From: an uncultured Candidatus Saccharibacteria bacterium
GTDB lineage: Bacteria > Patescibacteriota > Minisyncoccia > Phycocordibacterales > UBA3531
Length of the DNA: 46,610 nucleotides
Assembly (NCBI GenBank): GCA_964361405.1
Contig: CAYIAA010000005.1
Location: 1 to 46,610, forward strand
Direction of reading: 5' to 3'
Part shown: piece by piece, positions 2 through 35,891 of the stretch
How the letters are laid out: every line of letters begins with the position of its first letter
Numbering within the stretch: the stretch's first letter is position 1
The notes under the pieces: generated by a model
Databases searched by the model: none
What the model saw: only the letters and a program-made list of their open reading frames with translations
Told to the model about the DNA's origin: nothing
Position numbers and translations under genes: made by a program

Positions 2-2947
2 CTCGATCTCGCGCTCGAAGCCGGAGACAACTGCGTCGGCGCGAACGATTGCGCGGATGCAAATGTGGGTGGCAGGCAGAGGCGCATCCTGTTCCGTCGC
101 GGGGACACGTTCCGGCTGTCTGGCTTCGCAGAGATGAACCGTGGAGCGTCCACACCCGGCTTCATCGAGGCGTTCGGCAGTGGCGCGCGCCCGATCTTCA
201 ACCTGAACGGAGCACCACTCGAAGCCGGTGACCATTGGACGTACTTGGATATCCAGTTCACGAACTGCAATACCGGCTGTGTGTACGCGGATAACACGGA
301 CACGAATGACACCTGGGTGCGCGTGCGCATGTACAACCGAGGTTCGTCGTGTGTGGAAGAGACGCTGACCGACCCGACACTCATCGTCTCGACCTATCCT
401 GTACATCGCGCCTTTGTCGAAATGGAATGTGATGGAGACGACGCGACGGTCACGCGTGGATCGCTTGGCGTTTGGCCTGGGTCCGACTACTCGATGATCC
501 TCGGTGGGCACATCAGCCAGGATCCGAATCAGGTGAGCAGCGCCGGTGCGGCGGATCGCTTTTCGATTCGTTCTCACCACATGCAGTTCTACCTGATCTC
601 GCACGTCAACTTCATCGACACGCCGCCTGGGCGCGGGGCGCTAAGCCAGCTCCGCAGCGACGACAACTCCTGCTACGATGGTGGCTGCGAAGTGCCGCAG
701 TCGGACAACGCCTACATCCTGATCTCGGACAACTACCTCGAAGACAATGCGAGTGAATCGAACTTCGTCACGCGCGTTTGCCCGGACTCGGGCTGCAACT
801 GTCAAGGCTCCGCATGCTCTGGGTCGCTTCAGGGTAGCGTCGTGCCCGTCCACGACATGATCTTCGAACGGAACTTCCACGCTTCCCCGGACGGATCGGC
901 GAGTGCGAAGAATGGCATTTATCAGCTTTGGGGAAGTGACATCACGATCAGGAACAACGTCTACGACATGAACGGTGAGTTCTCCGGCGCGCTGATCTTC
1001 GCCTACGCGCTCGGCGACCCGAACAACGCCGGCGGCTCGGCCAGCGACGGCGACATCCACGTCTACAACAACACGCTTTACTTCAATCAGGCGATCGCGT
1101 CGAACCTGACCCTGGCTGGCGAGAGCACCGCCAGCGGAACCGGGTGTCCAATGGGCTGTCTTGCGCGGAATAATCTAGTCGTAGCACCGAATTGGTCAGG
1201 GGCTCTCGCCTACAGCTCGCGTATCACACAGTCGAATAACTTGAAGATTACAACCCCCAATCCATTCGCTGCCATAATTCCATCCCGGGGGATGACTGAT
1301 ATTGCAGACTTTAAACTCGCCGCCGGAAGCGCTCCGATCAATGCCGGATACAACTTTGTAGCATCATTAAATTTGAATGGGTGGGTATTTCGAGATGCTT
1401 TTTTGGGTTTGCGTACCGATGGTTTATGGGATATCGGCGCTCACGAAGTAGCTGCAGGCACCCCTCCCCCTCCTCCACCTCCTTCAGATACGACGCCTCC
1501 TTCTGTGAGCCTAACAAGCCCCACTTCCGGAGCAACATTTACGACAGGTCAAACAGTCTCACTCTCGGGAACTGCTTCAGACAGTTCAGGCATTGCTCGA
1601 GTTGAATTTCTGCTAAACGGAACGTTAATTAACACAGACACAACGAGTCCTTATACCGCTTCGTGGACTGCAATAGCAGGGAGTCATACGCTTAGTGCTC
1701 GTGCCGTTGATTCTAGTACTAATGCTAATTCAGCAACGAGTGCAACAGTATCGGTGACGGTGACGACACTACCACCAACAGGAGGACCCATACGCATCAA
1801 TAACACCCAATCAGTAGCACAATTCACCAGTCAAACTGGTTCAGACGGAAGCTTCGTCTCACTTCCCTACACCGTACCTGTGGATGGTATACTCATCGTC
1901 TCCGCAGGGTCACAGGGTGACCAGCTCCAGCAGCCTTCATCGGTCATTTTCAGAAGACAAAGTGGACAGATTGAAACCCTTAACACACCATCTCGTACAG
2001 TCGCATCAGTCACTGCGCCCGCGGCACCAGGTCAACAGTATTCATCTGCAATCGGGAACCATCTGTACTCTTTGCCTGTTGTTGCAGGCGATAGCGGAGT
2101 GATTGAAGTCAACTACACTGGTGGGCGCTGGGCAACAAGACGGAGCGGTATTATTGCATCGACCGTGAGCGGTGCCTCATCAGTGCAATCAGCCACTACA
2201 TTTTCTGTCAATAACACGCCAGCCATCAGTGGTTCAGTCACCGCTACATCGGATGCACTAGTTGTCAGTTCACTCACCAGTGATGGGTATACCAACCTCA
2301 CTGTTATGGGAACGGGTCATGTATTTGACGCACAACCGATGCAGGATATAAACGTATTCCATTCCACCCGTCTTGCATCAGGACATACATTTCTCACGAG
2401 CGGGTCTCAGTCTCTAGGGTATGTGAATACTTTCGGTAATTTCTATAATGCGGTACTCATCCTTGCGGTGTTTCAGTCCCCCACCAACCCCCCGGGCGGC
2501 CTCACCGGCGTCACCTTCTCACCGACACTTGAATCAGGTACATCTATAGGACGTTCATTTACTATCCAGATTTATTCTTCTGGTGGCACGACACCACTCC
2601 TCACCTTCACTGGAACGGCAAATAGTAGTGGACAAGTATCACTCCCCACTAATATGCTTTCATCAGGTTCTTATGATATCCGTGTTTCATCGCCGTATCA
2701 CCTTTCACGTAGATTTTCTGGACGAACACTTGCTTCAAATACTTCCGTATCCCTCGCTACTACATTGAGAGCAGGTGACTTGAATAATGACAATATCATT
2801 AATTCACTTGACTGGTCACTCATGAGTCCTGTGTGGTTTACCCCAGACAGTGCTAATTCCGGACGAGCGGATATCAACCAGAGTGGTTCGGTGACGTCCA
2901 TTGATTACTCATACCTCGCACGAAATTGGGGACAGGTGGGGGATTAG
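2..2947 (+). CDS. 5'-truncated large secreted surface protein: right-handed parallel beta-helix region, poly-Pro linker, Ig-like domain, C-terminal beta-sandwich plus dockerin-like tail
   Basis: Frame 2 is open from base 2, with no stop before the GTG at 65 used by the ORF track, so the gene runs off the window edge. It has beta-helix style repeats (IRNNVYDMNG, VYNNTLYFNQ, ARNNLVVAPN), a PPPPPPPSDTTPP linker and an Ig-like segment (VSLTSPTSGATFTTGQTVSLSGTASD...VEFLLNG). The tail GDLNNDNIINSLD...ADINQSGSVTSIDYSYLARNWG resembles a duplicated dockerin/EF-hand loop. Confidence 0.75.
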   Translation, partial: LDLALEAGDNCVGANDCADANVGGRQRRILFRRGDTFRLSGFAEMNRGASTPGFIEAFGSGARPIFNLNGAPLEAGDHWTYLDIQFTNCNTGCVYADNTDTNDTWVRVRMYNRGSSCVEETLTDPTLIVSTYPVHRAFVEMECDGDDATVTRGSLGVWPGSDYSMILGGHISQDPNQVSSAGAADRFSIRSHHMQFYLISHVNFIDTPPGRGALSQLRSDDNSCYDGGCEVPQSDNAYILISDNYLEDNASESNFVTRVCPDSGCNCQGSACSGSLQGSVVPVHDMIFERNFHASPDGSASAKNGIYQLWGSDITIRNNVYDMNGEFSGALIFAYALGDPNNAGGSASDGDIHVYNNTLYFNQAIASNLTLAGESTASGTGCPMGCLARNNLVVAPNWSGALAYSSRITQSNNLKITTPNPFAAIIPSRGMTDIADFKLAAGSAPINAGYNFVASLNLNGWVFRDAFLGLRTDGLWDIGAHEVAAGTPPPPPPPSDTTPPSVSLTSPTSGATFTTGQTVSLSGTASDSSGIARVEFLLNGTLINTDTTSPYTASWTAIAGSHTLSARAVDSSTNANSATSATVSVTVTTLPPTGGPIRINNTQSVAQFTSQTGSDGSFVSLPYTVPVDGILIVSAGSQGDQLQQPSSVIFRRQSGQIETLNTPSRTVASVTAPAAPGQQYSSAIGNHLYSLPVVAGDSGVIEVNYTGGRWATRRSGIIASTVSGASSVQSATTFSVNNTPAISGSVTATSDALVVSSLTSDGYTNLTVMGTGHVFDAQPMQDINVFHSTRLASGHTFLTSGSQSLGYVNTFGNFYNAVLILAVFQSPTNPPGGLTGVTFSPTLESGTSIGRSFTIQIYSSGGTTPLLTFTGTANSSGQVSLPTNMLSSGSYDIRVSSPYHLSRRFSGRTLASNTSVSLATTLRAGDLNNDNIINSLDWSLMSPVWFTPDSANSGRADINQSGSVTSIDYSYLARNWGQVGD

Positions 2948-2955
2948 AAACATAT

Positions 2956-5694
2956 ATGAGGTTTTTATTTTTATCATCAGTCATCGTTCTCCTAGTTTCC
3001 ATCGTTTCACTCGGGATTTTTGTTGCCCTTCAAGAAAATTCGGTTGCTCAAACAAGCGAGAACGTATATTTTGTGGCAAAGACTGGTAGCGACGCAAACT
3101 CCTGTGATAGTGCCCAGAGTGAAGCCACTCCGAAACTCACCATTGCCTCTGCCATAGCTTGTATCGGCTCCGCCGAGGGGGCTGGCGCCGGGAAAACCAT
3201 CCTTGTGAAGGCGGGCATTTATAATGAAGGGTCAGACGCCCACAGCGCCACCAGTCTCCCCGGGGGCACCTCCTGGTCGGCACCCTTCGTCCTCAAGGCC
3301 TACCCCGGTGACATTGTGATCTTGCGACCTAATCCTGGGGAAGCGCGGGTATTCACCATCGCAAAGGCTTCCAGCAAATACGCCATCATTGACGGCTTTG
3401 TCATGGATGCGGTGAATGTTCAATTTGACGCAGTCAAGATCACCTACATGGGTTCGGACCCTACCACTTCCGCGCACCACATCCGGATAGAGAATTCCGA
3501 AATCATGAACGCACCTGAGAAAGGCATTTTAATAACAACCGAAGCATCTGGAAATGAGCTCGTAAATAGTAAGGTCCATGACAACGGGAAGACAGATTTC
3601 CATCACGGTATCAATTTCTCGAGCGACGGTAACCTTATTACGGGTTCTGAGTTTTACAGGAACGCAGGGTCGGGAATCAACAAATATCCTCTGGGGAGTA
3701 ACAACATCATTCGCAACAACCGACTATATGACAACGCTCGGGTAGGATTACGGGGAGCGGGGATCGGACTGTATGGAGGAAGTGGCAACCTCGTGTATAA
3801 CAACCTGGTTTGGGGTAATCGGATCGGCATCGCTCTGCAGTATGGCGAATCTAATGACAAAATTTACAACAACACGATCTATGGAAATATCAACTATGGA
3901 ATTTATAATGGGGTGGACAGTACGAATGAAAGCATCAAAAATAATATCGTGTATCAAAATGGATCCGGTATCACCAATCTAGGTCCCAGAACTGCCTTCT
4001 CGAACAATCTCAGCACCGATCCTGGATTCGCCAACGCCGCAGCCAGGGTTTTTTACCTGCTCTCGGGTAGCCCGGCTATCGATGCGGGAGAGGACCTCTC
4101 CGCGGAGGGTGTGGCTACCGATTTTTCGGGCATTTCCCGCCCCCAAGGATTCACTTACGACATCGGTGCGTATGAATTTGTTCCCAGCCCCTCCACCCCA
4201 CTTCCTCCAAGCGGCCTCACCGGCGTCACCTTCTCTCCCATTCTTGAATCCGGCCCCTCGGTGGGCCACTCCTTCACGATCCAGATCTACTCACCGAGTG
4301 GTACCACGCCGCTTTTCTCTTTCACCGAGAGCATGGGTAGCGGGGGAAACCTGACGCTTCCCGCAACAAACACTTTCTCAACGGGATCCTACAACATCCG
4401 TGTGTCATCCCCACAGCACCTCTCGCGGCTATTTTCCGGGGTAACGCTTGCCGCAAACACAGCTGTTTCACTCTCGACCGCGCTCAAGGCAGGAAACTTA
4501 AACAATGACAACACGATCGACTCCCTCGACTGGTCACTTATGAATCCCGTATGGTTCACCCCAGACACCGGCAATACCGGACGTGCCGACGTGAATCGGA
4601 GCGGCTCGGTGACGTCTATCGACTTCTCCTTCCTTGCACGAAATTGGGGAGTGGTGGGGGATTTCGTCGTGCCGACTCCTGGTGGCAGTGCGCAGCATCT
4701 CACTTATGCCGCGGTGCCGGACCTCCAGAACTACTGCTCCTCGCAAGTGAATGTGGCCAGCCTGCCAGCGCTTGGGATCACGCATCTGCGCGCGATGGCG
4801 AACGATATCATCACGGTGCGCCCCGCGTTCGTCGTGCAAGTCGGCGACGTGACGGACTCGACGGGAGGATCTGATCAGAACGGAGTCGCGGCGGATGCAG
4901 ATGACCCCGACACGTTCGTGACGATGCCGAGTCGGTACTCCGAAGTCACTTGCGTCAAGGAAAACTTCTTCGATCTGCTCGACGCGGCGGGAATCCCGTG
5001 GATCGCCGTCTCCGGCAACCACGACAGTTACCGGGATTTCGAGCGCGGTTTCCCGCGCGCGACCTTCATGGCGAAGAGCTACGGGTTCGCGGCGCAGAAC
5101 GAGGTCGATCGCTGGCACACTGGGTGGAACGACACCGAAGAGCGCGCCGCACTCTTCTCGACGCCCATCGGCCCAATCTGCGTCGTTGGTGGCGACTACG
5201 CAATGGATCCTGCGGGCGGAACACTGGACGCGACGTTCGTCTCGACGAACATCGGTTGTGGCGGCTCGACTCCGACAATCCTCGTTCGCCACTATGGGAT
5301 CATGGATTCGGTCATGGGTGTGCGGAGTGCGGCGAACGCCGAGATTTTTATGGGCGTCTTCGGACACATAACGCCGCAACAGCCGGGCATCATGCAGTCG
5401 ATGACGATGATTAACCCGACGTCGGGCCAGATGGCCAACTTGTTCACGAATTCGCAGGAAGTGAGCCTTTCCTGCGGTGTGGCCGCGACCGACGGCACAT
5501 CAATGCACACCGGCGTTAGCTGGTGGACCGTCGTCGCTATCACGCCGAGCGCAAGCACAGTGGCGGTGCAGGCGCGCAATCCGCTTTTCAGCGGCGCGGC
5601 GACCGATCCAAGCTGCGGGAACACCTACCAGAACACGGTACTCACATTCTCGCCGAACCTCTGCACGCGCTTTCCAAGTATGACCGGCTGCTAA
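2956..5694 (+). CDS. Signal-anchored beta-helix surface protein with an internal dockerin-like module, fused in frame to a high-GC calcineurin-like metallophosphoesterase-like C-terminal domain
   Basis: The ATG at 2956 gives MRFLFLSSVIVLLVSIVSLGIFVALQ (signal or TM anchor); the ORF-track start at 2926 overlaps the upstream gene. PbH1-type repeats are present (NNRLYDN, LVYNNLVWGN, KIYNNTIYGN, NNIVYQN). A dockerin-like module ends in NWGVVGD at 4662. The frame then reads on into VQVGDVTD...SGNHDS...FGHITP, which are GDxxD/GNHD/GH phosphoesterase-type motifs. Confidence 0.7.
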   Translation: MRFLFLSSVIVLLVSIVSLGIFVALQENSVAQTSENVYFVAKTGSDANSCDSAQSEATPKLTIASAIACIGSAEGAGAGKTILVKAGIYNEGSDAHSATSLPGGTSWSAPFVLKAYPGDIVILRPNPGEARVFTIAKASSKYAIIDGFVMDAVNVQFDAVKITYMGSDPTTSAHHIRIENSEIMNAPEKGILITTEASGNELVNSKVHDNGKTDFHHGINFSSDGNLITGSEFYRNAGSGINKYPLGSNNIIRNNRLYDNARVGLRGAGIGLYGGSGNLVYNNLVWGNRIGIALQYGESNDKIYNNTIYGNINYGIYNGVDSTNESIKNNIVYQNGSGITNLGPRTAFSNNLSTDPGFANAAARVFYLLSGSPAIDAGEDLSAEGVATDFSGISRPQGFTYDIGAYEFVPSPSTPLPPSGLTGVTFSPILESGPSVGHSFTIQIYSPSGTTPLFSFTESMGSGGNLTLPATNTFSTGSYNIRVSSPQHLSRLFSGVTLAANTAVSLSTALKAGNLNNDNTIDSLDWSLMNPVWFTPDTGNTGRADVNRSGSVTSIDFSFLARNWGVVGDFVVPTPGGSAQHLTYAAVPDLQNYCSSQVNVASLPALGITHLRAMANDIITVRPAFVVQVGDVTDSTGGSDQNGVAADADDPDTFVTMPSRYSEVTCVKENFFDLLDAAGIPWIAVSGNHDSYRDFERGFPRATFMAKSYGFAAQNEVDRWHTGWNDTEERAALFSTPIGPICVVGGDYAMDPAGGTLDATFVSTNIGCGGSTPTILVRHYGIMDSVMGVRSAANAEIFMGVFGHITPQQPGIMQSMTMINPTSGQMANLFTNSQEVSLSCGVAATDGTSMHTGVSWWTVVAITPSASTVAVQARNPLFSGAATDPSCGNTYQNTVLTFSPNLCTRFPSMTGC

Positions 5695-5740
5695 GGAGAC
5701 TCTTATGTGAGCACGCGATTCGTACCACTCATCTCCATCG

Positions 5741-5869
5741 ATGCTCGCTTTCACGGTCGATGTCAGCTCGAACGCGAATGCCGGGCGCGCCGACGTGAAC
5801 CGAAGTGGCTCAGTGACGTCCATTGATTACTCATACCTCGCACGAAATTGGGGAGTGGTGGGGGATTAG
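5741..5869 (+). pseudogene. Orphan, frame-disrupted dockerin-like tail (3' gene remnant)
   Basis: Frame 2 reads MLAFTVDVSSNANAGRADVNRSGSVTSIDYSYLARNWGVVGD*. The last ~60 nt are nearly identical to the 3' end of the first gene (2888-2947), including GATTAGAAA. An in-frame stop lies upstream at 5708-5710, and the first dockerin loop is recognisable only in another frame (LISIDA). Confidence 0.6.
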
Positions 5870-6522
5870 AAAAGACCGGGCTGACTCTCTCCCATATTCT
5901 CTTTTTCTGGCGATTCTTCAATAAGGCTCCTCTCTTTAAGAAACTCTGCGTATCTCTCCCGCAGTGCCGGAAGGGTGCAGAAGCTTTTTTCGAGCTCTCC
6001 TTTCACTTCCGCGGAGCGTAGTGCGGCGGCGGGGTGGTAAAGTGGAATGACCACGAACTCTTTCCACCAGAACACCTTCCCTTGATCGCGGGAAATTTTC
6101 GCTGTCGGGAGAAAAAAGTTCATAGAGAATCTCCCAAGCGGAAGAATAAGTTTCGGATGAATGATTTCCACTTGTCTCAAGAGGTACGGGGCATAGAGGG
6201 TAATTTCTTCAGGGGTCGGGTCGCGGTTCTCCGGTGGGCGGCGTTTTACGATGTTTGTGATGTAGACGCCTTCCCGTTTCCACCCGATAGTTTTCAAGAG
6301 TTCGGTGAGGAGTTGTCCGGAGCGCCCGACGAAAGGCCGCTGTTCGATGTTTTCGTAGTAGCCCGGCGCTTCCCCGATAAAGAGCACCTCTCCGTCAGGA
6401 TTGCCTTCTCCAAAAACGAGATTTGATTCCTGGAGCGGAAGCGATATGTCTCCCCGAATCTCAAACTCGAGTTTCTCTAACGCTTCTCTTTTTGAACTAT
6501 ACTGGTGTGGCGGCATTGTCAT
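5866..6522 (-). CDS. Uracil-DNA glycosylase, family 4 type
   Basis: Motif GEAPGYYENIEQRPFVGRSGQLL and a C-terminal PLYHPAAALR. The start is placed at the internal Met (MTMPPHQ) because the longer ORF overlaps the divergent gene. Confidence 0.85.
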   Translation of the reverse strand: MTMPPHQYSSKREALEKLEFEIRGDISLPLQESNLVFGEGNPDGEVLFIGEAPGYYENIEQRPFVGRSGQLLTELLKTIGWKREGVYITNIVKRRPPENRDPTPEEITLYAPYLLRQVEIIHPKLILPLGRFSMNFFLPTAKISRDQGKVFWWKEFVVIPLYHPAAALRSAEVKGELEKSFCTLPALRERYAEFLKERSLIEESPEKENMGESQPGLF

Positions 6523-21072: not shown

Positions 21073-21624
21073 ATGGAAATTACTACACCAGTTGAAAATG
21101 GAGCAGTTCTCGCTCCCGAAGAAGCATCGAAAAAACGAAAGCCTTTTTCTCGTGGCGCGCGTGTGCCGAGGCGTGATGAGTTTGAGCAGGTAGTTCTTAA
21201 TATTCGCCGAGTGACGCGTGTTGTGGCGGGAGGAAGACGTTTCAGTTTCTCTGCCGCAGTTGTGGTTGGCGACAGGAAAGGTCGCGTTGGTATCGGTGTC
21301 GGAAAAGGAGTAGATACAGCTCTTGCCATTCAAAAGGCGGTGCGTCTTGCAAAGCGTAACCTGATAACAATTCCGCTCACAAAATCCCACTCGATTAAGC
21401 GCGCAGAGGAAGCAAAATATTGCGCTTCACGAGTCATTGTGCGTCCGGTCCCCGGCCGAGGACTCGTCGCCGGGTCCGTGGTACGGAGCGTGCTCGACGT
21501 TGCGGGAGTACGGGATGTTAGTGCGAAAATTGTTTCAAGAAGTAAGAATAAAATAAATAATGCCCGTGCTGTCTACGAAGCACTCCGTATGCTTGGGGAA
21601 CACGAAGCTCTTGTCAGAGAGTAA
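21073..21624 (+). CDS. rpsE: 30S ribosomal protein S5
   Basis: RRVTRVVAGGRRFSFSAAVVVGDRKGRVGIGVGKG. Confidence 0.95.
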   Translation: MEITTPVENGAVLAPEEASKKRKPFSRGARVPRRDEFEQVVLNIRRVTRVVAGGRRFSFSAAVVVGDRKGRVGIGVGKGVDTALAIQKAVRLAKRNLITIPLTKSHSIKRAEEAKYCASRVIVRPVPGRGLVAGSVVRSVLDVAGVRDVSAKIVSRSKNKINNARAVYEALRMLGEHEALVRE

Positions 21625-21627
21625 TAT

Positions 21628-22092
21628 ATGCAGTTACATACTTTATCGAGAACAACCGAGCGGAGAAAAGGGAAACGCCTTGGCCGTGGGGGGAAGCGTG
21701 GAACGACTTCTGGTCGCGGCACAAAAGGGCAGAGGGCTCGTGCGGGCCACCGCATTAGACCGGCCCTCCGCGACATTATGAAACGGCTTCCGAAACAACG
21801 CGGGCGCTTTCAGGGTATTTCTGAAAAATCACATGTGGTGATGCTCTCGGACCTCGAAGAGCACTTCGAGTCGGGGGCAAAAATTACCCTACGAGCACTA
21901 CTCTCACGGAGACTTATCAAGGATTCTCGCGCTGGCGCGGAGATAAAAATTTTGGGCACTGGGAAGTTAACCAAAGCGTTCAACATTTTTGGTGTGAGTG
22001 CTTCCGTCGGTGCCTTGAAAAAAATCCACGATGCCGGAGGGAGTGTTCTCGGGAAGAAGGGTGCGAAAGAGAAATCAAAGAAAGCATCATAG
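21628..22092 (+). CDS. rplO: 50S ribosomal protein L15
   Basis: KRLGRGGKRGTTSGRGTKGQ. It starts 3 nt after the S5 stop, which leaves no room for an L30 gene. Confidence 0.93.
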   Translation: MQLHTLSRTTERRKGKRLGRGGKRGTTSGRGTKGQRARAGHRIRPALRDIMKRLPKQRGRFQGISEKSHVVMLSDLEEHFESGAKITLRALLSRRLIKDSRAGAEIKILGTGKLTKAFNIFGVSASVGALKKIHDAGGSVLGKKGAKEKSKKAS

Positions 22093-23650: not shown

Positions 23651-24221
23651 AAAAAACGGTTTTACCTTAGTCGAGCTCCTCGTCGTCATTGCCATTGTCG
23701 GTCTCTTATCGAGTATCGTGCTCTCATCGCTCAACCAAGCGCGCGCGAGAGCTCGGGATGCAAGGCGTATTCAAGAGCTCGCACAGATTCATAATGCTCT
23801 CGCTCTTTATGCCGATGATAATGATGGACTCTACCCGGACCCAAATCCAACCAATGCCGCCAATACCCTCCAAATCACTGACAATGCTTCTAGTCTGAAT
23901 TTCGGCGGTAGCCTTTACGGTGCTTCTCGCTGGCCAGCGCTTACAAACTTGCTCGCTCCCTATATTAAGCTCCCCGTAGATCCGGTGAATAGCGGATCAT
24001 TTATTATATTCGGAACAGGGTATGGATACTACTATCATTACAATGCGGCAACTAACGCGTATGACCTTATTGCCGTTCTGGAAACTCCGTCGCATTCGCT
24101 GAGCTGCGGAGTGGTGCGCACCGCCGGACAACCCTACCTGAAGAAGGCCCGAGCGACCCCGGACAGTTCATGGTGCCCAACAGTTGGGGCCGCGGCGGAT
24201 AATATCTACGCGGTGAGATGA
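23634..24221 (+). CDS. Type IV pilin / pseudopilin-like protein (prepilin N-terminal motif)
   Basis: MSGSGRKNG|[21 protein letters not shown] is a class III signal with Glu at +5. The C-terminal Cys pair is [26 protein letters not shown]. Confidence 0.85.
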
Positions 24222-24243: not shown

Positions 24244-24885
24244 ATGTACGGCCGGCGTGACGGTTTTGCTCTCCTTGAAGTCCTCGTTGTCGTTTCTATA
24301 ATCGCGCTTCTTGCAAGTGTCACACTAGCAAACGTCAGCTCCGCGCGCGCCAGGGCGCGCGACACAGTGCGGATTTCAGATTTGAAGCTGATTGGGGGAG
24401 CGCTTGATCTCTATCGGCAAGAGCACGGCTCATATCCGGATCCGTATACATCCATATGGAATAGGCCAGGAGAATACAATGGCTTTACCGACAGCGCTTT
24501 CAGCCTCCCCGGTGGTTATGGTATTTTCGGCTCTGCTCGCTGGCCAGCCCCGGGAGTGATGCCAGCCGCCACAACACTCACTAGCTTACTTGCCCCCTAT
24601 ATTAAACTCCCCGTAGACCCCCTCAACAGGCCGACCACGGGGAACACAACTCCTCTGACGGGCGCGATGTATGGATACTACTATCATTACCACGCGGCAA
24701 ACGACGAGTATGACCTCACTGCCGCCCTGGAAACTCCGTCGCACCCGGCTAGCTGCGGAGTGATGCGCGCGGCCGGGAAGCCTTACCTGAAGAAGGCCAG
24801 ATTGGTAGTGGGAGAATCATGGTGCCCGGAAACCGGATACGGATCGAGTATTACAACGGACGATAACATTTACGCCCTGCAATAA
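24244..24885 (+). CDS. Type IV pilin / pseudopilin-like protein, paralog of the preceding gene
   Basis: MYGRRDG|FALLEVLVVVSIIALLASVTL. It shares [19 protein letters not shown] and LETPSH..SCGV.R.AG.PYLKKAR...SWCP with the upstream paralog. Confidence 0.85.
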   Translation: MYGRRDGFALLEVLVVVSIIALLASVTLANVSSARARARDTVRISDLKLIGGALDLYRQEHGSYPDPYTSIWNRPGEYNGFTDSAFSLPGGYGIFGSARWPAPGVMPAATTLTSLLAPYIKLPVDPLNRPTTGNTTPLTGAMYGYYYHYHAANDEYDLTAALETPSHPASCGVMRAAGKPYLKKARLVVGESWCPETGYGSSITTDDNIYALQ

Positions 24886-32788: not shown

Positions 32789-33174
32789 TGGAGATGGCGG
32801 GAATCGAACCCGCGTCCAGTAAGGAAACAAACGCAGATCTACGAGCGTAGCGCGTTTTTGTGTTTTAAGCCGAAGCGTTATGAAGCGCGCAAAATGCGAA
32901 TCAGCCGAGTCTCATTGTTTCTGGTAAGCCAGGAGACACCGGTTCACCATACTCTCACTGTTATGACGCCTCGATGCGCCCCCGGAGAGTCGGGGCACGG
33001 AGACGGCATCCGAAACGCTTACGCGATTGCGAATGCTGGGGCAAAGGGGGACAAAACCCTCTTTGCTACCTTTGATACGTTTGCACGTATATGTTTCTAG
33101 CGTTTTTAACGAGCTAGCTAGAATCCTCGACCCGCGTGCGAAAGAATCGCTCACTGTCAAAGCCGATCATCCCC
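32789..33174 (-). ncRNA. ssrA: tmRNA (SsrA)
   Basis: The 5' end reads GGGGATGATCGGCTTTGACAG. The 3' end, GGACGCGGGTTCGATTCCCGCCATCTCCA, forms an acceptor stem with a G3:U pair. CCA is not encoded. The predicted tag ORF at 33084-33019 starts at GCA and gives ANVSKVAKRVLSPFAPAFAIA*. The gene sits directly downstream of smpB. Confidence 0.9.
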
Positions 33175-35690: not shown

Positions 35691-35819
35691 TTGTGAGACG
35701 CTCTCGCGTCCATCCGCGCGAGGGCGAGATGTGATCACCTCCTTTTCTAAACTGTCTTTATTATCCCAAGCCCAATAGCTCTGTCAATCAACCAAAGTGA
35801 ACGTATGCGCTTAAACGTG

Positions 35820-35891
35820 TGCGCGTGCTAGGACTTGAACCTAGAACCGGTCGTGTATAAGACGACTGCTCTACCATTGAGCTACACGCGC
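35820..35891 (-). tRNA. tRNA-Ile with anticodon UAU
   Basis: The minus strand reads GCGCGTG-TA-GCTC-AATGGTA-GAGC-A-GTCGT-CTTATAC-ACGAC-CGGTT-CTAGG-TTCAAGT-CCTAG-CACGCGC-A. This is a clean cloverleaf with anticodon TAT at 35859-35857. CCA is not encoded. Confidence 0.85.

What the first reader, a model, noticed from the sequence alone, without database searches (positions are those of the whole stretch)
4575..5869. Stop-codon loss fuses a surface protein to a foreign high-GC phosphoesterase block, leaving an orphan dockerin tail
Genes 1 and 2 share a C-terminal module that ends in ...NWG[QV]VGD.

**Junction.** In gene 1 and in the remnant at 5741-5869 this is followed by TAG AAA. In gene 2, similarity to both tails ends at the first base of that stop codon (GAT TTC GTC at 4660-4668). 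The frame then continues for 343 codons.

**Composition.** Hand counts give 38/60 GC at 4801-4860 and 39/60 at 5761-5820, against 19/60 at 3841-3900.

**Content of the high-GC block.** It encodes GDxxD/GNHD/GH phosphoesterase-type motifs. It ends in a stop at 5694, followed by a frame-broken dockerin-like sequence. The last ~60 nt of that sequence are almost identical to the gene 1 tail.

**Interpretation.** This looks like recombination at the conserved dockerin-coding 3' end, swapping in a cargo domain from a higher-GC donor that itself carried a dockerin tail.
Basis: partly seen in the sequence, partly recalled or inferred. Interest (0 to 1): 0.65.

Follow-up and report, generated by a model that had tools for sequence, protein, structure and literature searches.

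The report
Phage-type phosphoesterase fused onto dockerin protein
A surface-protein gene of an ultra-small groundwater bacterium has no stop codon after its dockerin and reads straight into a foreign, phage-associated phosphoesterase gene that has lost its own export signal; this is a real but fairly ordinary case of domain capture in a highly variable surface-protein locus.

Summary
The sequence facts hold. Gene 2 (2956-5694, 912 aa) has no stop after ...NWGVVGD and runs 343 more codons (4663-5691). That block is compositionally foreign: GC3 0.78 against 0.45-0.57 in housekeeping genes.

The block is a complete mature copy of a small, uncharacterised family with a metallophosphoesterase fold. 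Every close relative is a stand-alone, roughly 330-400 aa secreted protein with its own signal peptide. Several are encoded in phage genomes of high-GC hosts. None carries a dockerin.

The junction lies inside a single assembly-graph unitig in four public groundwater runs from two studies, at the same depth as the flanking genome. It is therefore not a chimera with another organism.

The orphan tail (5774-5869) is only the second half of a dockerin, not a frame-broken whole one. It looks resident rather than donor-derived. In a sibling genome (L016), and in a co-occurring variant, a dockerin-ended gene abuts the same UDG gene directly, with no gene 2, no phosphoesterase and no orphan.

One link is not proven by the graph. 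A 262-465 nt stretch near-identical to a second locus lies just upstream of the junction. So the N-terminal partner (beta-helix head) rests on the original assemblies and on analogy with L016.

Interest is modest.

The parts
65..2947 (+). Gene 1. Its 5' end runs off the window and off the source contig. It encodes an unknown high-GC3 head, a Big_7 Ig domain, a roughly 240-aa middle domain, a roughly 95-aa module and a type I dockerin ending NWGQVGD, followed by TAG.
   Evidence: ORF and translation. Pfam Big_7 at 479-545 and Dockerin_1 at 903-953. The orthologous gene in sibling L016 abuts UDG directly.
2956..5694 (+). Gene 2, the fused ORF, as called in the public assemblies (912 aa, P0015). 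The mechanical ORF starts at TTG 2926.
   Evidence: The same 912-aa product is called on 3 assembled contigs.
2956..4197 (+). Gene 2 head. It consists of a hydrophobic N-terminal export signal or anchor (MRFLFLSSVIVLLVSIVSLGIFVALQ), a right-handed beta-helix (NosD / choice-of-anchor Q type) and a Pro-rich linker.
   Evidence: Pfam Beta_helix and NosD. NCBIfam choice_anch_Q and para_beta_helix. The signal peptide is read from the sequence and was not predicted by a tool.
4198..4662 (+). Gene 2 tail: linker LPPSG, the shared module, and a complete dockerin (Pfam hit at nt 4498-4641) ending NWGVVGD. It is about 72% identical in DNA to the gene 1 tail. It is also near-identical to the tail of a second locus that lies outside the window.
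   Evidence: Repeat families D1, D2 and D4. Pfam. 4382-4643 is at 2x depth, with two entries and two exits in the assembly graph.
4660..4668 (+). Fusion junction GAT|TTC GTC. Similarity to the other tails ends after the T at 4663, where they read TAG.
   Evidence: The junction lies inside one 1229-nt unitig (4614-5842) in runs X1-X3 and inside 338-599-nt unitigs in X4 and X5.
4663..5694 (+). Foreign block of 343 codons plus TAA. It is the complete mature part of a secreted protein with a metallophosphoesterase fold and lacks that family's signal peptide. The motifs are PDLQ (the family's variant of DxH), GDVTD, GNHD, RH and GH, with 8 conserved Cys.
   Evidence: Homologues. Pfam Metallophos at 22.5 bits against a cut-off of 21.5. 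AF2 model and Foldseek hits to Lmo2642, Rv0805, GpdQ and Mre11. Composition.
5695..5773 (+). 79-nt spacer of unknown origin. It begins with GGAG and ATG/GTG, as if it were the start of a downstream gene in the donor.
   Evidence: No significant similarity to gene 1, gene 2 or the DNA downstream of a homologue.
5774..5869 (+). Orphan half-dockerin (second Ca-binding loop through NWGVVGD, then TAG). It has no credible start or upstream half. It is a mosaic of resident tails.
   Evidence: Pfam matches Dockerin_1 profile positions 27-54 only.
5866..6522 (-). Convergent uracil-DNA glycosylase gene. Its stop codon overlaps the orphan tail's TAG by 4 nt. It marks the boundary of the variable locus and is the anchor for synteny with the sibling genome.
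   Evidence: Pfam UDG on the called gene. Synteny with L016.

Best explanation
**What it is.** This is a real in-frame gene fusion in the chromosome of an ultra-small groundwater bacterium. The genome looks like a member of the Candidate Phyla Radiation (CPR, also called Patescibacteria). The locus is a hypervariable stretch of modular, dockerin-ended surface-protein genes that sits against a UDG gene and the ribosomal-protein operon.

**What happened.** A roughly 1.1-kb foreign fragment (4664-5773) came from a high-GC source and belongs to a family often carried by phages. It holds the whole mature part of a secreted, Cys-rich, metallophosphoesterase-fold protein, its native stop, and 79 nt of downstream DNA. 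It was joined to the last sense codon of the resident beta-helix/dockerin gene. The resident stop, the donor start codon and the donor signal peptide were all lost.

**How it works (inferred).** The captured enzyme no longer has an export signal of its own. It is now exported and displayed as the C-terminal domain of gene 2, using gene 2's N-terminal signal or anchor, with the dockerin now internal. The product would be a two-enzyme surface protein: a beta-helix carbohydrate-active or carbohydrate-binding head plus a phosphodiesterase. It would probably act on envelope or extracellular polymers of a host or neighbouring cell.

**The orphan tail.** The orphan half-dockerin at 5774-5869 is the leftover 3' end of the resident dockerin-ended gene that originally abutted UDG, as it still does in sibling genomes. 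It has since been partly homogenised by gene conversion with the other tails.

**Shown:**
- the junction
- the foreign composition
- family membership and the missing signal peptide
- the fold
- the sibling arrangement

**Inferred:**
- the direction and order of the events
- export through the fusion
- enzymatic activity and substrate
For: **Junction and frame.**

**Not a cross-organism chimera.**
- One unitig spans 4614-5842 in X1-X3.
- Its depth (20.7 / 14.7 / 12.8) tracks the flanking genome (22-25 / 15-16 / 11-15). X4 and X5, from a second study, behave the same way, with no variant letters.
- The same 912-aa product is called on 3 assembled contigs.

**Foreign origin.**
- GC3 is 0.776 against 0.45-0.57 for housekeeping genes.
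- Tetranucleotide distance is 0.538 against a native maximum of 0.367.

**Family.**
- There are 14 close homologues, the best at 68% identity and E = 2.6e-157.
- Most of the full-length ones (11 of the 14) are 356-382 aa with an N-terminal signal peptide or lipobox.
- The window block aligns from about 10 residues before the first conserved motif through to the family's native C-terminus.
- There are only 26 representatives at E <= 1e-30 among 1.84 billion proteins. Those examined carry no dockerin.

**Phage link.**
- P0006 lies beside an SU10-type portal and major capsid gene and an intein-bearing gene. The same phage is present in IMG/VR.
- P0001 lies beside an endolysin and a protein with weak tail-fibre matches, in DNA of 68% GC.

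**Fold.** The AF2 model has pTM 0.85. Foldseek gives probability 1.0 to the metallophosphoesterases Lmo2642, Rv0805, GpdQ and Mre11.

**Resident origin of the orphan.**
- It is identical over 42 nt to the gene 1 tail, and its last 31 nt equal the gene 2 tail.
- Its 5' GCGAATGC matches only the sibling's tail.
- In sibling L016 (80-88% nt identity in housekeeping genes) a gene 1-like gene ends GAG TAG G TTAGAAGAG directly against UDG.
- The same TAGGTTAGAAGAG exit exists as an alternative unitig in the Hainich runs.
Against: **Linkage of the beta-helix head to the block.**
- The unitig graph does not prove it. 4382-4643 is at 2x depth, with two entries (the gene 2 body, or a Big_7-type gene) and two exits (the block, or a stop plus a UDG-like end).
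- Only the original assemblies and analogy with L016 support the pairing seen in the window.
- No raw reads were available. Low-coverage runs were too patchy to decide.

**Polarity of events.**
- It is not established. The sibling arrangement could also arise by deletion between the tail repeats.
- There is no sharp GC3 step at the junction.

**Function.**
- The Pfam Metallophos score is marginal: 22.5 bits alone and 20.2 bits in the full protein, against a cut-off of 21.5.
- The family lacks the canonical His of motif I (Gln instead) and the second His of motif V, so catalytic activity is uncertain.
- No expression data were examined.

**Host taxon.** It was not identified directly. The only support is the sample name (0.1 um fraction) and the absence of an L30 gene between S5 and L15.
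Confidence: 0.62

Rival explanations
1. Repeat-induced mispairing in the assembly. The dockerin-phosphoesterase fusion is real, but its true N-terminal partner is the Big_7-type (gene 1-like) paralogue or sibling gene seen as 'entry B'. On this reading the beta-helix gene 2 actually ends with a normal stop against a second UDG-like gene, and the window is a chimera of two loci or strains joined within 4199-4663.
For: - The graph has two entries and two exits around a 2x-depth 262-nt unitig. All four arms are at about 1x in X1-X5.
- The shared stretch (up to 465 nt) is longer than any k-mer and comparable to a typical short-insert size.
- The source contig ends inside gene 1, and another branch exists at window position 55.
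Against: - Three assembled contigs give the identical 912-aa product.
- In sibling L016 the Big_7-type gene is the one that ends with the TAG-G-TTAGAAGAG / UDG signature of the alternative exit. That leaves the beta-helix body for the phosphoesterase exit.
Confidence: 0.2
2. Homologous recombination at the conserved dockerin 3' end swapped in a cargo gene from a donor whose phosphoesterase was itself followed by a dockerin tail. The orphan is that donor tail.
For: - The insert is bracketed by tail sequences 1204 nt apart.
- The orphan's GC3 (0.667) is higher than that of the gene 1 tail.
- The tails clearly exchange sequence with each other.
Against: - No family member examined carries a dockerin. 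The block ends at the family's native C-terminus and stop.
- The orphan is out of frame, lies behind a 79-nt unrelated spacer, and is only half a dockerin.
- Its sequence is a mosaic of resident tails and the sibling tail. It sits exactly where the resident tail meets UDG in L016.
- There is no homology at the left junction on the donor side.
Confidence: 0.08
3. A recent, neutral or decaying accident. The fragment landed in frame by chance, and the C-terminal block is non-functional baggage, or even disrupts dockerin function, and is on its way to loss.
For: - Only this lineage has it. The siblings lack it.
- The locus is littered with debris: the orphan half-dockerin and the 79-nt spacer.
- The family lacks two canonical metal-ligand histidines.
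- No expression data were examined.
Against: - The 343 codons are open, while the other frames of the same stretch are broken into ORFs of 154 aa or less.
- The block has the family residue at all 40 columns invariant across the 13-sequence alignment (which includes the block) and keeps the conserved cysteines.
- The truncation removes almost exactly the signal peptide and nothing of the mature domain.
- The sequence is identical in runs from two studies.
Confidence: 0.1

Closest known systems
Cellulosome-type modular enzymes with type I dockerins (Clostridia; Pfam PF00404)
   Same: It has a duplicated Ca-binding loop-helix dockerin of about 55 aa at the end of a secreted multi-module enzyme. 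It scores above the Pfam cut-off. The head is a carbohydrate-active-type beta-helix.
   Different: - The dockerin here is internal and is followed by a phosphoesterase.
- The host looks like a CPR bacterium, not a cellulolytic Firmicute.
- No cohesin partner was looked for or found.
- The dockerin-coding 3' end is conserved at DNA level among paralogues and siblings, and appears to act as a recombination substrate.
Calcineurin-like metallophosphoesterases of the GpdQ / Rv0805 / Lmo2642 type (Pfam PF00149)
   Same: It has the fold (Foldseek probability 1.0, TM 0.4-0.5), the GDxxD, GNHD and GH motifs, and a marginal Pfam hit.
   Different: - Identity to solved structures is only 10-14%, and a profile search of PDB sequences found nothing.
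- Motif I reads D-x-Q, not D-x-H. Motif V lacks the second His.
- The family is secreted, has about 8 conserved cysteines, and has an extra C-terminal beta region.
The stand-alone secreted family represented by P0001-P0013, partly encoded in SU10-like and other phages of high-GC hosts
   Same: It is 45-68% identical over the whole mature protein, with the same C-terminus and all conserved residues.
   Different: - Family members carry their own signal peptide or lipobox and are separate genes.
- The window copy has lost that signal and is fused behind a dockerin.
- No member has a named function in Pfam, PHROGs or NCBIfam.
'Choice-of-anchor' surface proteins (NCBIfam NF041518 and relatives): one head with interchangeable C-terminal anchors
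   Same: The gene 2 head carries a choice-of-anchor Q domain. Its nearest head homologues end in other tails that look like T9SS sorting domains by eye (not tested), and they sit in tandem arrays.
   Different: Here the interchangeable tail is a dockerin module shared at near-DNA identity between loci, and a further enzyme has been added behind it.

Membership tests
Type I dockerin (PF00404) | Profile match above the curated cut-off | tested here: met
   Gene 1 scores 35.9 bits, gene 2 32.5 bits and the orphan 24.5 bits (profile positions 27-54 only), against a cut-off of 22.9.
Type I dockerin (PF00404) | Two tandem Ca-binding loops (D/N-x-D/N-x-D/N... followed by a helix) | tested here: met
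   Read from the sequence. Gene 2 has NLNNDNTIDSLD and DVNRSGSVTSID. The orphan has only the second loop.
Type I dockerin (PF00404) | A cognate cohesin-bearing partner | not tested
   Only 46.6 kb of the genome is in hand, and no cohesin search was run.
Calcineurin-like metallophosphoesterase (PF00149) | Profile match above the curated cut-off | tested here: inconclusive
   The block alone scores 22.5 bits and the block within the full protein 20.2 bits, against a cut-off of 21.5. Several family members pass and others show no precomputed hit.
Calcineurin-like metallophosphoesterase (PF00149) | The five-motif metal site DxH / GDxxD / GNH[DE] / H / GHxH | tested here: inconclusive
   GDVTD, GNHD, RH and GH are present and invariant. 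Motif I is D-L-Q (Gln is nearly invariant in the family) and motif V is GH-I-T. Two canonical histidines are missing.
Calcineurin-like metallophosphoesterase (PF00149) | Beta-alpha-beta-alpha-beta sandwich fold | tested here: met
   The AF2 model has pLDDT 77 and pTM 0.85. The top 50 Foldseek PDB hits are almost all metallophosphoesterases, with probability 1.0 and E down to 8.5e-9.
Calcineurin-like metallophosphoesterase (PF00149) | Phosphoester hydrolase activity | not testable with these tools
   This needs a biochemical assay.
Stand-alone secreted phosphoesterase-like family (P0001-P0013) | Full-length similarity of the mature protein, including the conserved Cys and the C-terminal C.RFP..GC | tested here: met
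   68% identity and E = 2.6e-157 to P0001. All 40 invariant columns are shared.
Stand-alone secreted phosphoesterase-like family (P0001-P0013) | Own N-terminal signal peptide or lipobox, and a separate gene | tested here: not met
   The window copy starts about 10 residues before the first conserved motif, directly behind the dockerin. No hydrophobic N-terminus is present.
Assembly chimera (artefact) | The junction is unsupported by independent data, or the two sides differ in depth | tested here: not met
   The junction lies inside single unitigs in runs from two studies (4614-5842 in X1-X3; 4614-4951 in X4; 4614-5212 in X5). Depths on the two sides match. The upstream repeat leaves the identity of the N-terminal partner open.

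The most novel reading that the evidence does not exclude
The conserved module-plus-dockerin 3' end may be more than a shared domain. It could work as a portable recombination cassette exchanged among co-occurring ultra-small bacteria. A 262-465 nt stretch is near-identical between two loci whose adjacent UDG gene ends have clearly diverged. Such a cassette would let these cells swap enzyme heads onto a common anchor and capture phage genes, here a secreted phosphoesterase, for surface display. That would amount to a natural domain-shuffling and surface-variation system in episymbionts.
Probability: 0.2. Interest if true: 0.6.

Novelty: new member of a known kind. Interest (0 to 1): 0.33.

Why it matters
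**What it illustrates.** CPR/Patescibacteria are thought to live attached to other cells. In the one genetically tractable member, envelope proteins with dockerin, fn3 and lectin-like domains are essential (PMC10633639).

This locus gives a concrete, datable example of how such surface proteins are built:
- heads, middle domains and tails differ between close siblings at one chromosomal site;
- a phage-family enzyme was captured by losing its own signal peptide and borrowing that of the resident protein.

It also flags a small, unnamed family of secreted phosphoesterase-fold proteins carried by phages of high-GC bacteria. Its function is unknown. It may be an envelope phosphodiester depolymerase, but that is conjecture.

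**Limits.** None of this overturns anything. Gene fusion after horizontal transfer, internal dockerins and mosaic surface-protein loci are all known.

Tried and rejected
1. **Exact look-up of the 922-aa mechanical ORF.** It is not on record. The called gene starts at ATG 2956 and is P0015.
2. **Homology search with the 155-aa tail module.** This was meant to find the second locus.
3. **UDG protein against species-representative genomes.** No relative was found.
4. **The tail DNA pattern in genome and metagenome collections.** It matched only unrelated MOSC-domain genes that happen to encode NWGLVGD.
5. **The alternative-exit sequence in the window.** It is absent.
6. **Laying runs on the UDG region at 80% likeness.** The result was swamped by unrelated UDG genes. 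A second UDG-like contig at 6016-6048 has a depth ratio of 0.42-1.33 to the window genome and cannot be tied to the alternative exit.
8. **Raw-read or long-read runs to test linkage.** None are available.
9. **Low-coverage runs X6-X8.** At first they seemed to separate the gene 2 body from the block. A 12-kb view showed only patchy 1-3x coverage everywhere, and the block is present in X8. The chimera hint was therefore dropped as unsupported.
10. **A 'frame-broken first dockerin half' in 5695-5773.** There is no similarity above shuffles.
11. **Similarity of the 79-nt spacer to the genes downstream of homologues.** None was found.
12. **PDB sequence profile, PHROGs and NCBIfam for the block.** No hits.
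13. **Promoter- or terminator-like sites in 4500-6100.** None.
14. **The G-rich GGTGGGGGAT as a dispersed motif.** It is not enriched outside the tails.


Full report
**1. Observation**

The window opens with two same-strand genes. Gene 1 runs from before position 65 to 2947. Gene 2 is a mechanical ORF at 2926-5694 and is called from ATG 2956 as a 912-aa product.

Both genes carry a shared C-terminal module and a type I dockerin (Pfam 35.9 and 32.5 bits against a cut-off of 22.9). The DNA repeats are 286 nt and 122 nt long at about 72% identity.

The string CGAAATTGGGGANNGGTGGGGGATT occurs three times: at 2921-2945, 4639-4663 and 5843-5867. None is expected by chance. After the first and third copies comes TAGAAA. 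After the second comes TCGTCG, so the frame stays open for 343 codons up to TAA 5692-5694.

One descriptive detail fails. What follows the stop is not a frame-broken dockerin.
- Similarity to the tails begins only at 5774, giving 96 nt, which is the second Ca-loop half.
- The 79 nt at 5695-5773 match nothing I could test.

**2. Is the block foreign?**

Yes. The evidence is compositional.
- The window is 51% GC, and ten housekeeping genes have GC3 of 0.45-0.57.
- The block has 61.8% GC and GC3 of 0.776.
- Its tetranucleotide distance from the rest of the window is 0.538. Seventy-eight native chunks of the same size give 0.294 +/- 0.028, with a maximum of 0.367.

The step at 4662 is not sharp. 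Gene 2's own tail already has GC3 of 0.60-0.78. The head of gene 1 is just as aberrant (GC3 0.755, distance 0.54). The whole locus is a compositional mosaic, not one clean island.

**3. What is the block?**

A search of 5.8 billion proteins found 14 relatives, the best at 68% identity and E = 2.6e-157.
- Most of the full-length relatives (11 of the 14) are stand-alone proteins of 356-382 aa.
- They have an N-terminal signal peptide, and some have an L-P-A-C lipobox.
- They share a common C-terminus...C.RFP..GC.

The window block aligns from about ten residues before the first conserved motif (AAVPDLQNYCS) through to that native C-terminus and stop. It has the family residue at all 40 columns that are invariant across the 13-sequence alignment (which includes the block itself), and it keeps the conserved cysteines. 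What it lacks is the start codon and the signal peptide.

An exhaustive profile search of 1.84 billion representatives found only 26 at E <= 1e-30.
- Most are 330-400 aa.
- A few carry C-terminal TSP_3 or fn3 modules, and one has an N-terminal extension.
- Those examined carry no dockerin.

The fold evidence is as follows.
- Pfam gives a marginal Metallophos hit: 22.5 bits alone and 20.2 bits in context, against a cut-off of 21.5.
- An AlphaFold2 model (pLDDT 77, pTM 0.85) matches metallophosphoesterases at Foldseek probability 1.0. The hits are Lmo2642, Rv0805, GpdQ and Mre11, with TM 0.4-0.5 and 10-14% identity.
- GDxxD, GNHD, an RH and a GH are invariant. The family has Gln where motif I has His, and it lacks the second His of motif V. 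The fold is shown; the activity is inferred.
- PDB sequence, PHROGs and NCBIfam searches gave nothing.

**4. Where does the family live?**

- P0006 lies a few genes from an SU10-type portal and major capsid protein and an intein-bearing gene. The same phage is in IMG/VR.
- P0001 lies next to a Peptidase_M15_4 endolysin and a protein with weak tail-fibre matches, among many small ORFs, in DNA of 68% GC.
- One homologue sits in a context that looks chromosomal.

A phage, or a phage-infected high-GC bacterium, is therefore a plausible source. The direct donor is unknown.

**5. Is it an assembly artefact?**

Eight public groundwater runs from two studies hold the region.

In Logan's k = 31 unitigs, one 1229-nt unitig covers 4614-5842 in X1, X2 and X3. 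It spans the junction, the block, its stop, the spacer and the start of the orphan.
- Its depth is 20.7 / 14.7 / 12.8.
- The neighbouring genome is at 22-25 / 15-16 / 11-15.

X4 and X5 behave the same way, with no variant letters. No unitig joins 4663 to 5867. A chimera between this genome and a high-GC organism is therefore excluded.

Two repeats interrupt the graph.

(a) A 42-nt stretch is identical between the gene 1 tail and the orphan (2891-2932 = 5813-5854). It is shorter than a read and is resolved in the deposited assemblies.

(b) The second repeat is more serious. 4382-4643 is a 2x-depth unitig with two entries and two exits.
- One entry is the gene 2 body. The other reads ...SAAVAVTVTALPPSGLTGVTFSP, which is the end of a Big_7 domain running straight into the module.
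- One exit is the block. The other is ...GAT TAG G TTAGAAGAGACCCTGACG.
- Read on the other strand, that second exit ends ...RKDRQGLF*. The window's UDG ends ...MGESQPGLF*.

So a second dockerin-tail/UDG-like locus exists, either in a co-occurring sibling or elsewhere in the same genome. It is near-identical to gene 2 over up to 465 nt. Unitigs cannot say which entry goes with which exit.

Two things favour the pairing seen in the window.
- Three assembled contigs give the same 912-aa product.
- The sibling comparison in section 6 does too.

Raw reads were not available. Low-coverage runs were too patchy to help.

**6. Sibling genome**

Through an EF-G cluster mate I obtained L016, a 16.9-kb contig from another sample. 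It has the same gene order: UDG, Lactamase_B, M50, S12, S7, EF-G, EF-Tu and onwards. Nucleotide identity in those genes is 80-88%.

In L016 a gene 1-like gene directly abuts UDG.
- Its domain order is head, an extra domain, Big_7 ending ...VSVTVTNLPVSGLSGVTFSP, module, and dockerin ending NWGQIGE*.
- The junction reads GAG TAG G TTAGAAGAGGCC.
- This is the same TAG-G-TTAGAAGAG signature as the alternative exit in the Hainich runs.

Two siblings therefore lack gene 2, the phosphoesterase and the orphan tail. In both, the Big_7-type gene is the one that meets the UDG-like end. That supports the window's pairing.

The gene 1 middle domain (aa 572-811) is also absent from both. This confirms that modules come and go at this site.

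**7. The orphan tail**

It is a mosaic.
- Its first bases (GCGAATGC) match only the L016 tail.
- Positions 5813-5854 are identical to gene 1.
- The last 31 nt are identical to gene 2.
- It ends TAGAAA, overlapping the UDG stop, as a resident tail should.

It sits behind the block's own stop and an unrelated spacer, and no relative of the block examined has a dockerin. It is therefore most simply the remains of a resident dockerin-ended gene next to UDG, later homogenised by gene conversion.

Two histories fit equally well.
- A 1.1-kb foreign fragment replaced everything between gene 2's stop and the middle of a third gene's dockerin.
- The fragment inserted at gene 2's stop with a roughly 96-nt duplication of the tail.

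I cannot choose between them. Nor can I exclude that the sibling arrangement arose by deletion between tail repeats.

**8. How it most likely works**

Gene 2 begins with a hydrophobic export signal or anchor (read from the sequence). It carries a beta-helix of the NosD / choice-of-anchor Q type.

Every relative of the captured enzyme is secreted, and the family has about eight conserved cysteines. A cytoplasmic copy without a signal peptide would probably misfold.

Fusion behind a secreted protein restores export. The truncation removes almost exactly the signal peptide and nothing else. This is the main argument that the fusion is functional rather than debris.

The predicted product is a surface protein with two catalytic or binding heads and an internal dockerin. 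A role in attacking or binding phosphodiester-containing envelope polymers or nucleic acids of a host cell is conjecture.

**9. Host**

I could not name the organism. The evidence is consistent with a CPR/Patescibacteria genome but does not prove it.
- The sample label is Hain_H51_01um.
- The gene set fits.
- S5 is directly followed by L15 with no L30 gene. From general knowledge, this absence is typical of CPR.

**10. Verdict**

The cargo is foreign, it is joined at the conserved tail, and the tails recombine.
- It is wrong on the origin of the orphan tail.

This is a new architecture built from known kinds of parts by a known kind of process. It is a useful illustration of surface-protein modularity and phage-gene capture in ultra-small bacteria, but it is not a new type of system.

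Noticed in passing
window 65-1264 (gene 1 head): The first 400 or so codons of gene 1 are as compositionally aberrant as the phosphoesterase block (GC3 0.755, locally up to 0.95; tetranucleotide distance 0.54 against a native maximum of 0.367). They have no Pfam or NCBIfam match. The orthologous head in sibling L016 also has a high-GC3 stretch, so this is probably an older acquisition.
   Followed up: partly
window ~1780-2495 (gene 1 aa 572-811): Gene 1 has a roughly 240-aa middle domain bracketed by ...TLPPTGG and ...NPPGG. This domain is absent from the sibling gene in L016 and from the alternative 'entry B' gene, where Big_7 runs straight into the module. It looks like another module insertion flanked by short Pro-Gly linkers. 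GC3 here is only 0.2-0.5.
   Followed up: partly
outside the window; joins at window 4199 and leaves at 4663 (runs X1-X5, X8): A second locus shares up to 465 nt near-identically with gene 2's tail. It enters from a Big_7-type gene and ends GAT TAG G TTAGAAGAGACCCTGACG, whose reverse strand reads like a diverged UDG C-terminus (...RKDRQGLF*). Near-identity of the tail beside a diverged neighbouring gene suggests recent exchange of the tail cassette between loci or lineages. I could not retrieve the contig.
   Followed up: partly
L016:3-2724 (ENA ERZ27254763, k141_1230092): This is a sibling genome with the same UDG-to-ribosomal-operon synteny at 80-88% nt identity. It has a single gene 1-like dockerin gene against UDG and carries an extra roughly 90-aa domain that the window's gene 1 lacks.
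   Followed up: yes
L002:5083-8552; L014:2537-4561; L015: In phage contexts the phosphoesterase-like gene is always preceded by a roughly 164-aa Cys-rich protein with a signal peptide and followed by further signal-peptide proteins. This cluster sits near the endolysin, or upstream of the terminase-like, portal and capsid genes. It is a conserved cluster of secreted phage proteins of unknown role.
   Followed up: partly
window 5866-5869: The convergent UDG gene's TAA and the orphan tail's TAG overlap by 4 nt. In L016 and in the alternative exit the two stops are instead separated by one base (TAG G TTA).
   Followed up: yes
window 21073-22092: Ribosomal protein S5 is followed 3 nt later by L15, with no L30 gene between them. 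This fits a CPR/Patescibacteria genome.
   Followed up: partly
window 35819-35891 and 32789-33174: There is a tRNA-Ile with anticodon TAT, an uncommon way to read AUA in bacteria. There is also a tmRNA with the tag ANVSKVAKRVLSPFAPAFAIA.
   Followed up: no
window 4569: A C>T variant is carried by unitigs in X5 and the low-coverage X6 and X8, runs from both studies, but not in X1-X3. It is the only polymorphism seen in the tail and block region.
   Followed up: no
window 24020-24152 and 24669-24801: A 133-nt direct repeat at 83% identity, with copies 649 nt apart. It is unrelated to the finding.
   Followed up: no
window 2935-2958: The purine-rich end of the dockerin tail (GGTGGGGGATTAG) lies 12 nt upstream of gene 2's ATG, so it may double as that gene's ribosome-binding site. 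The same string lies 8 nt upstream of an in-frame GTG (4669) at the start of the phosphoesterase block. An internal start there would give a product with no signal peptide.
   Followed up: no
P0004 / L013:8001-9533: The 510-aa homologue has a low-complexity Arg/Pro-rich C-terminal part. This looks like a frameshifted read-through in a long-read assembly rather than a real extension.
   Followed up: no
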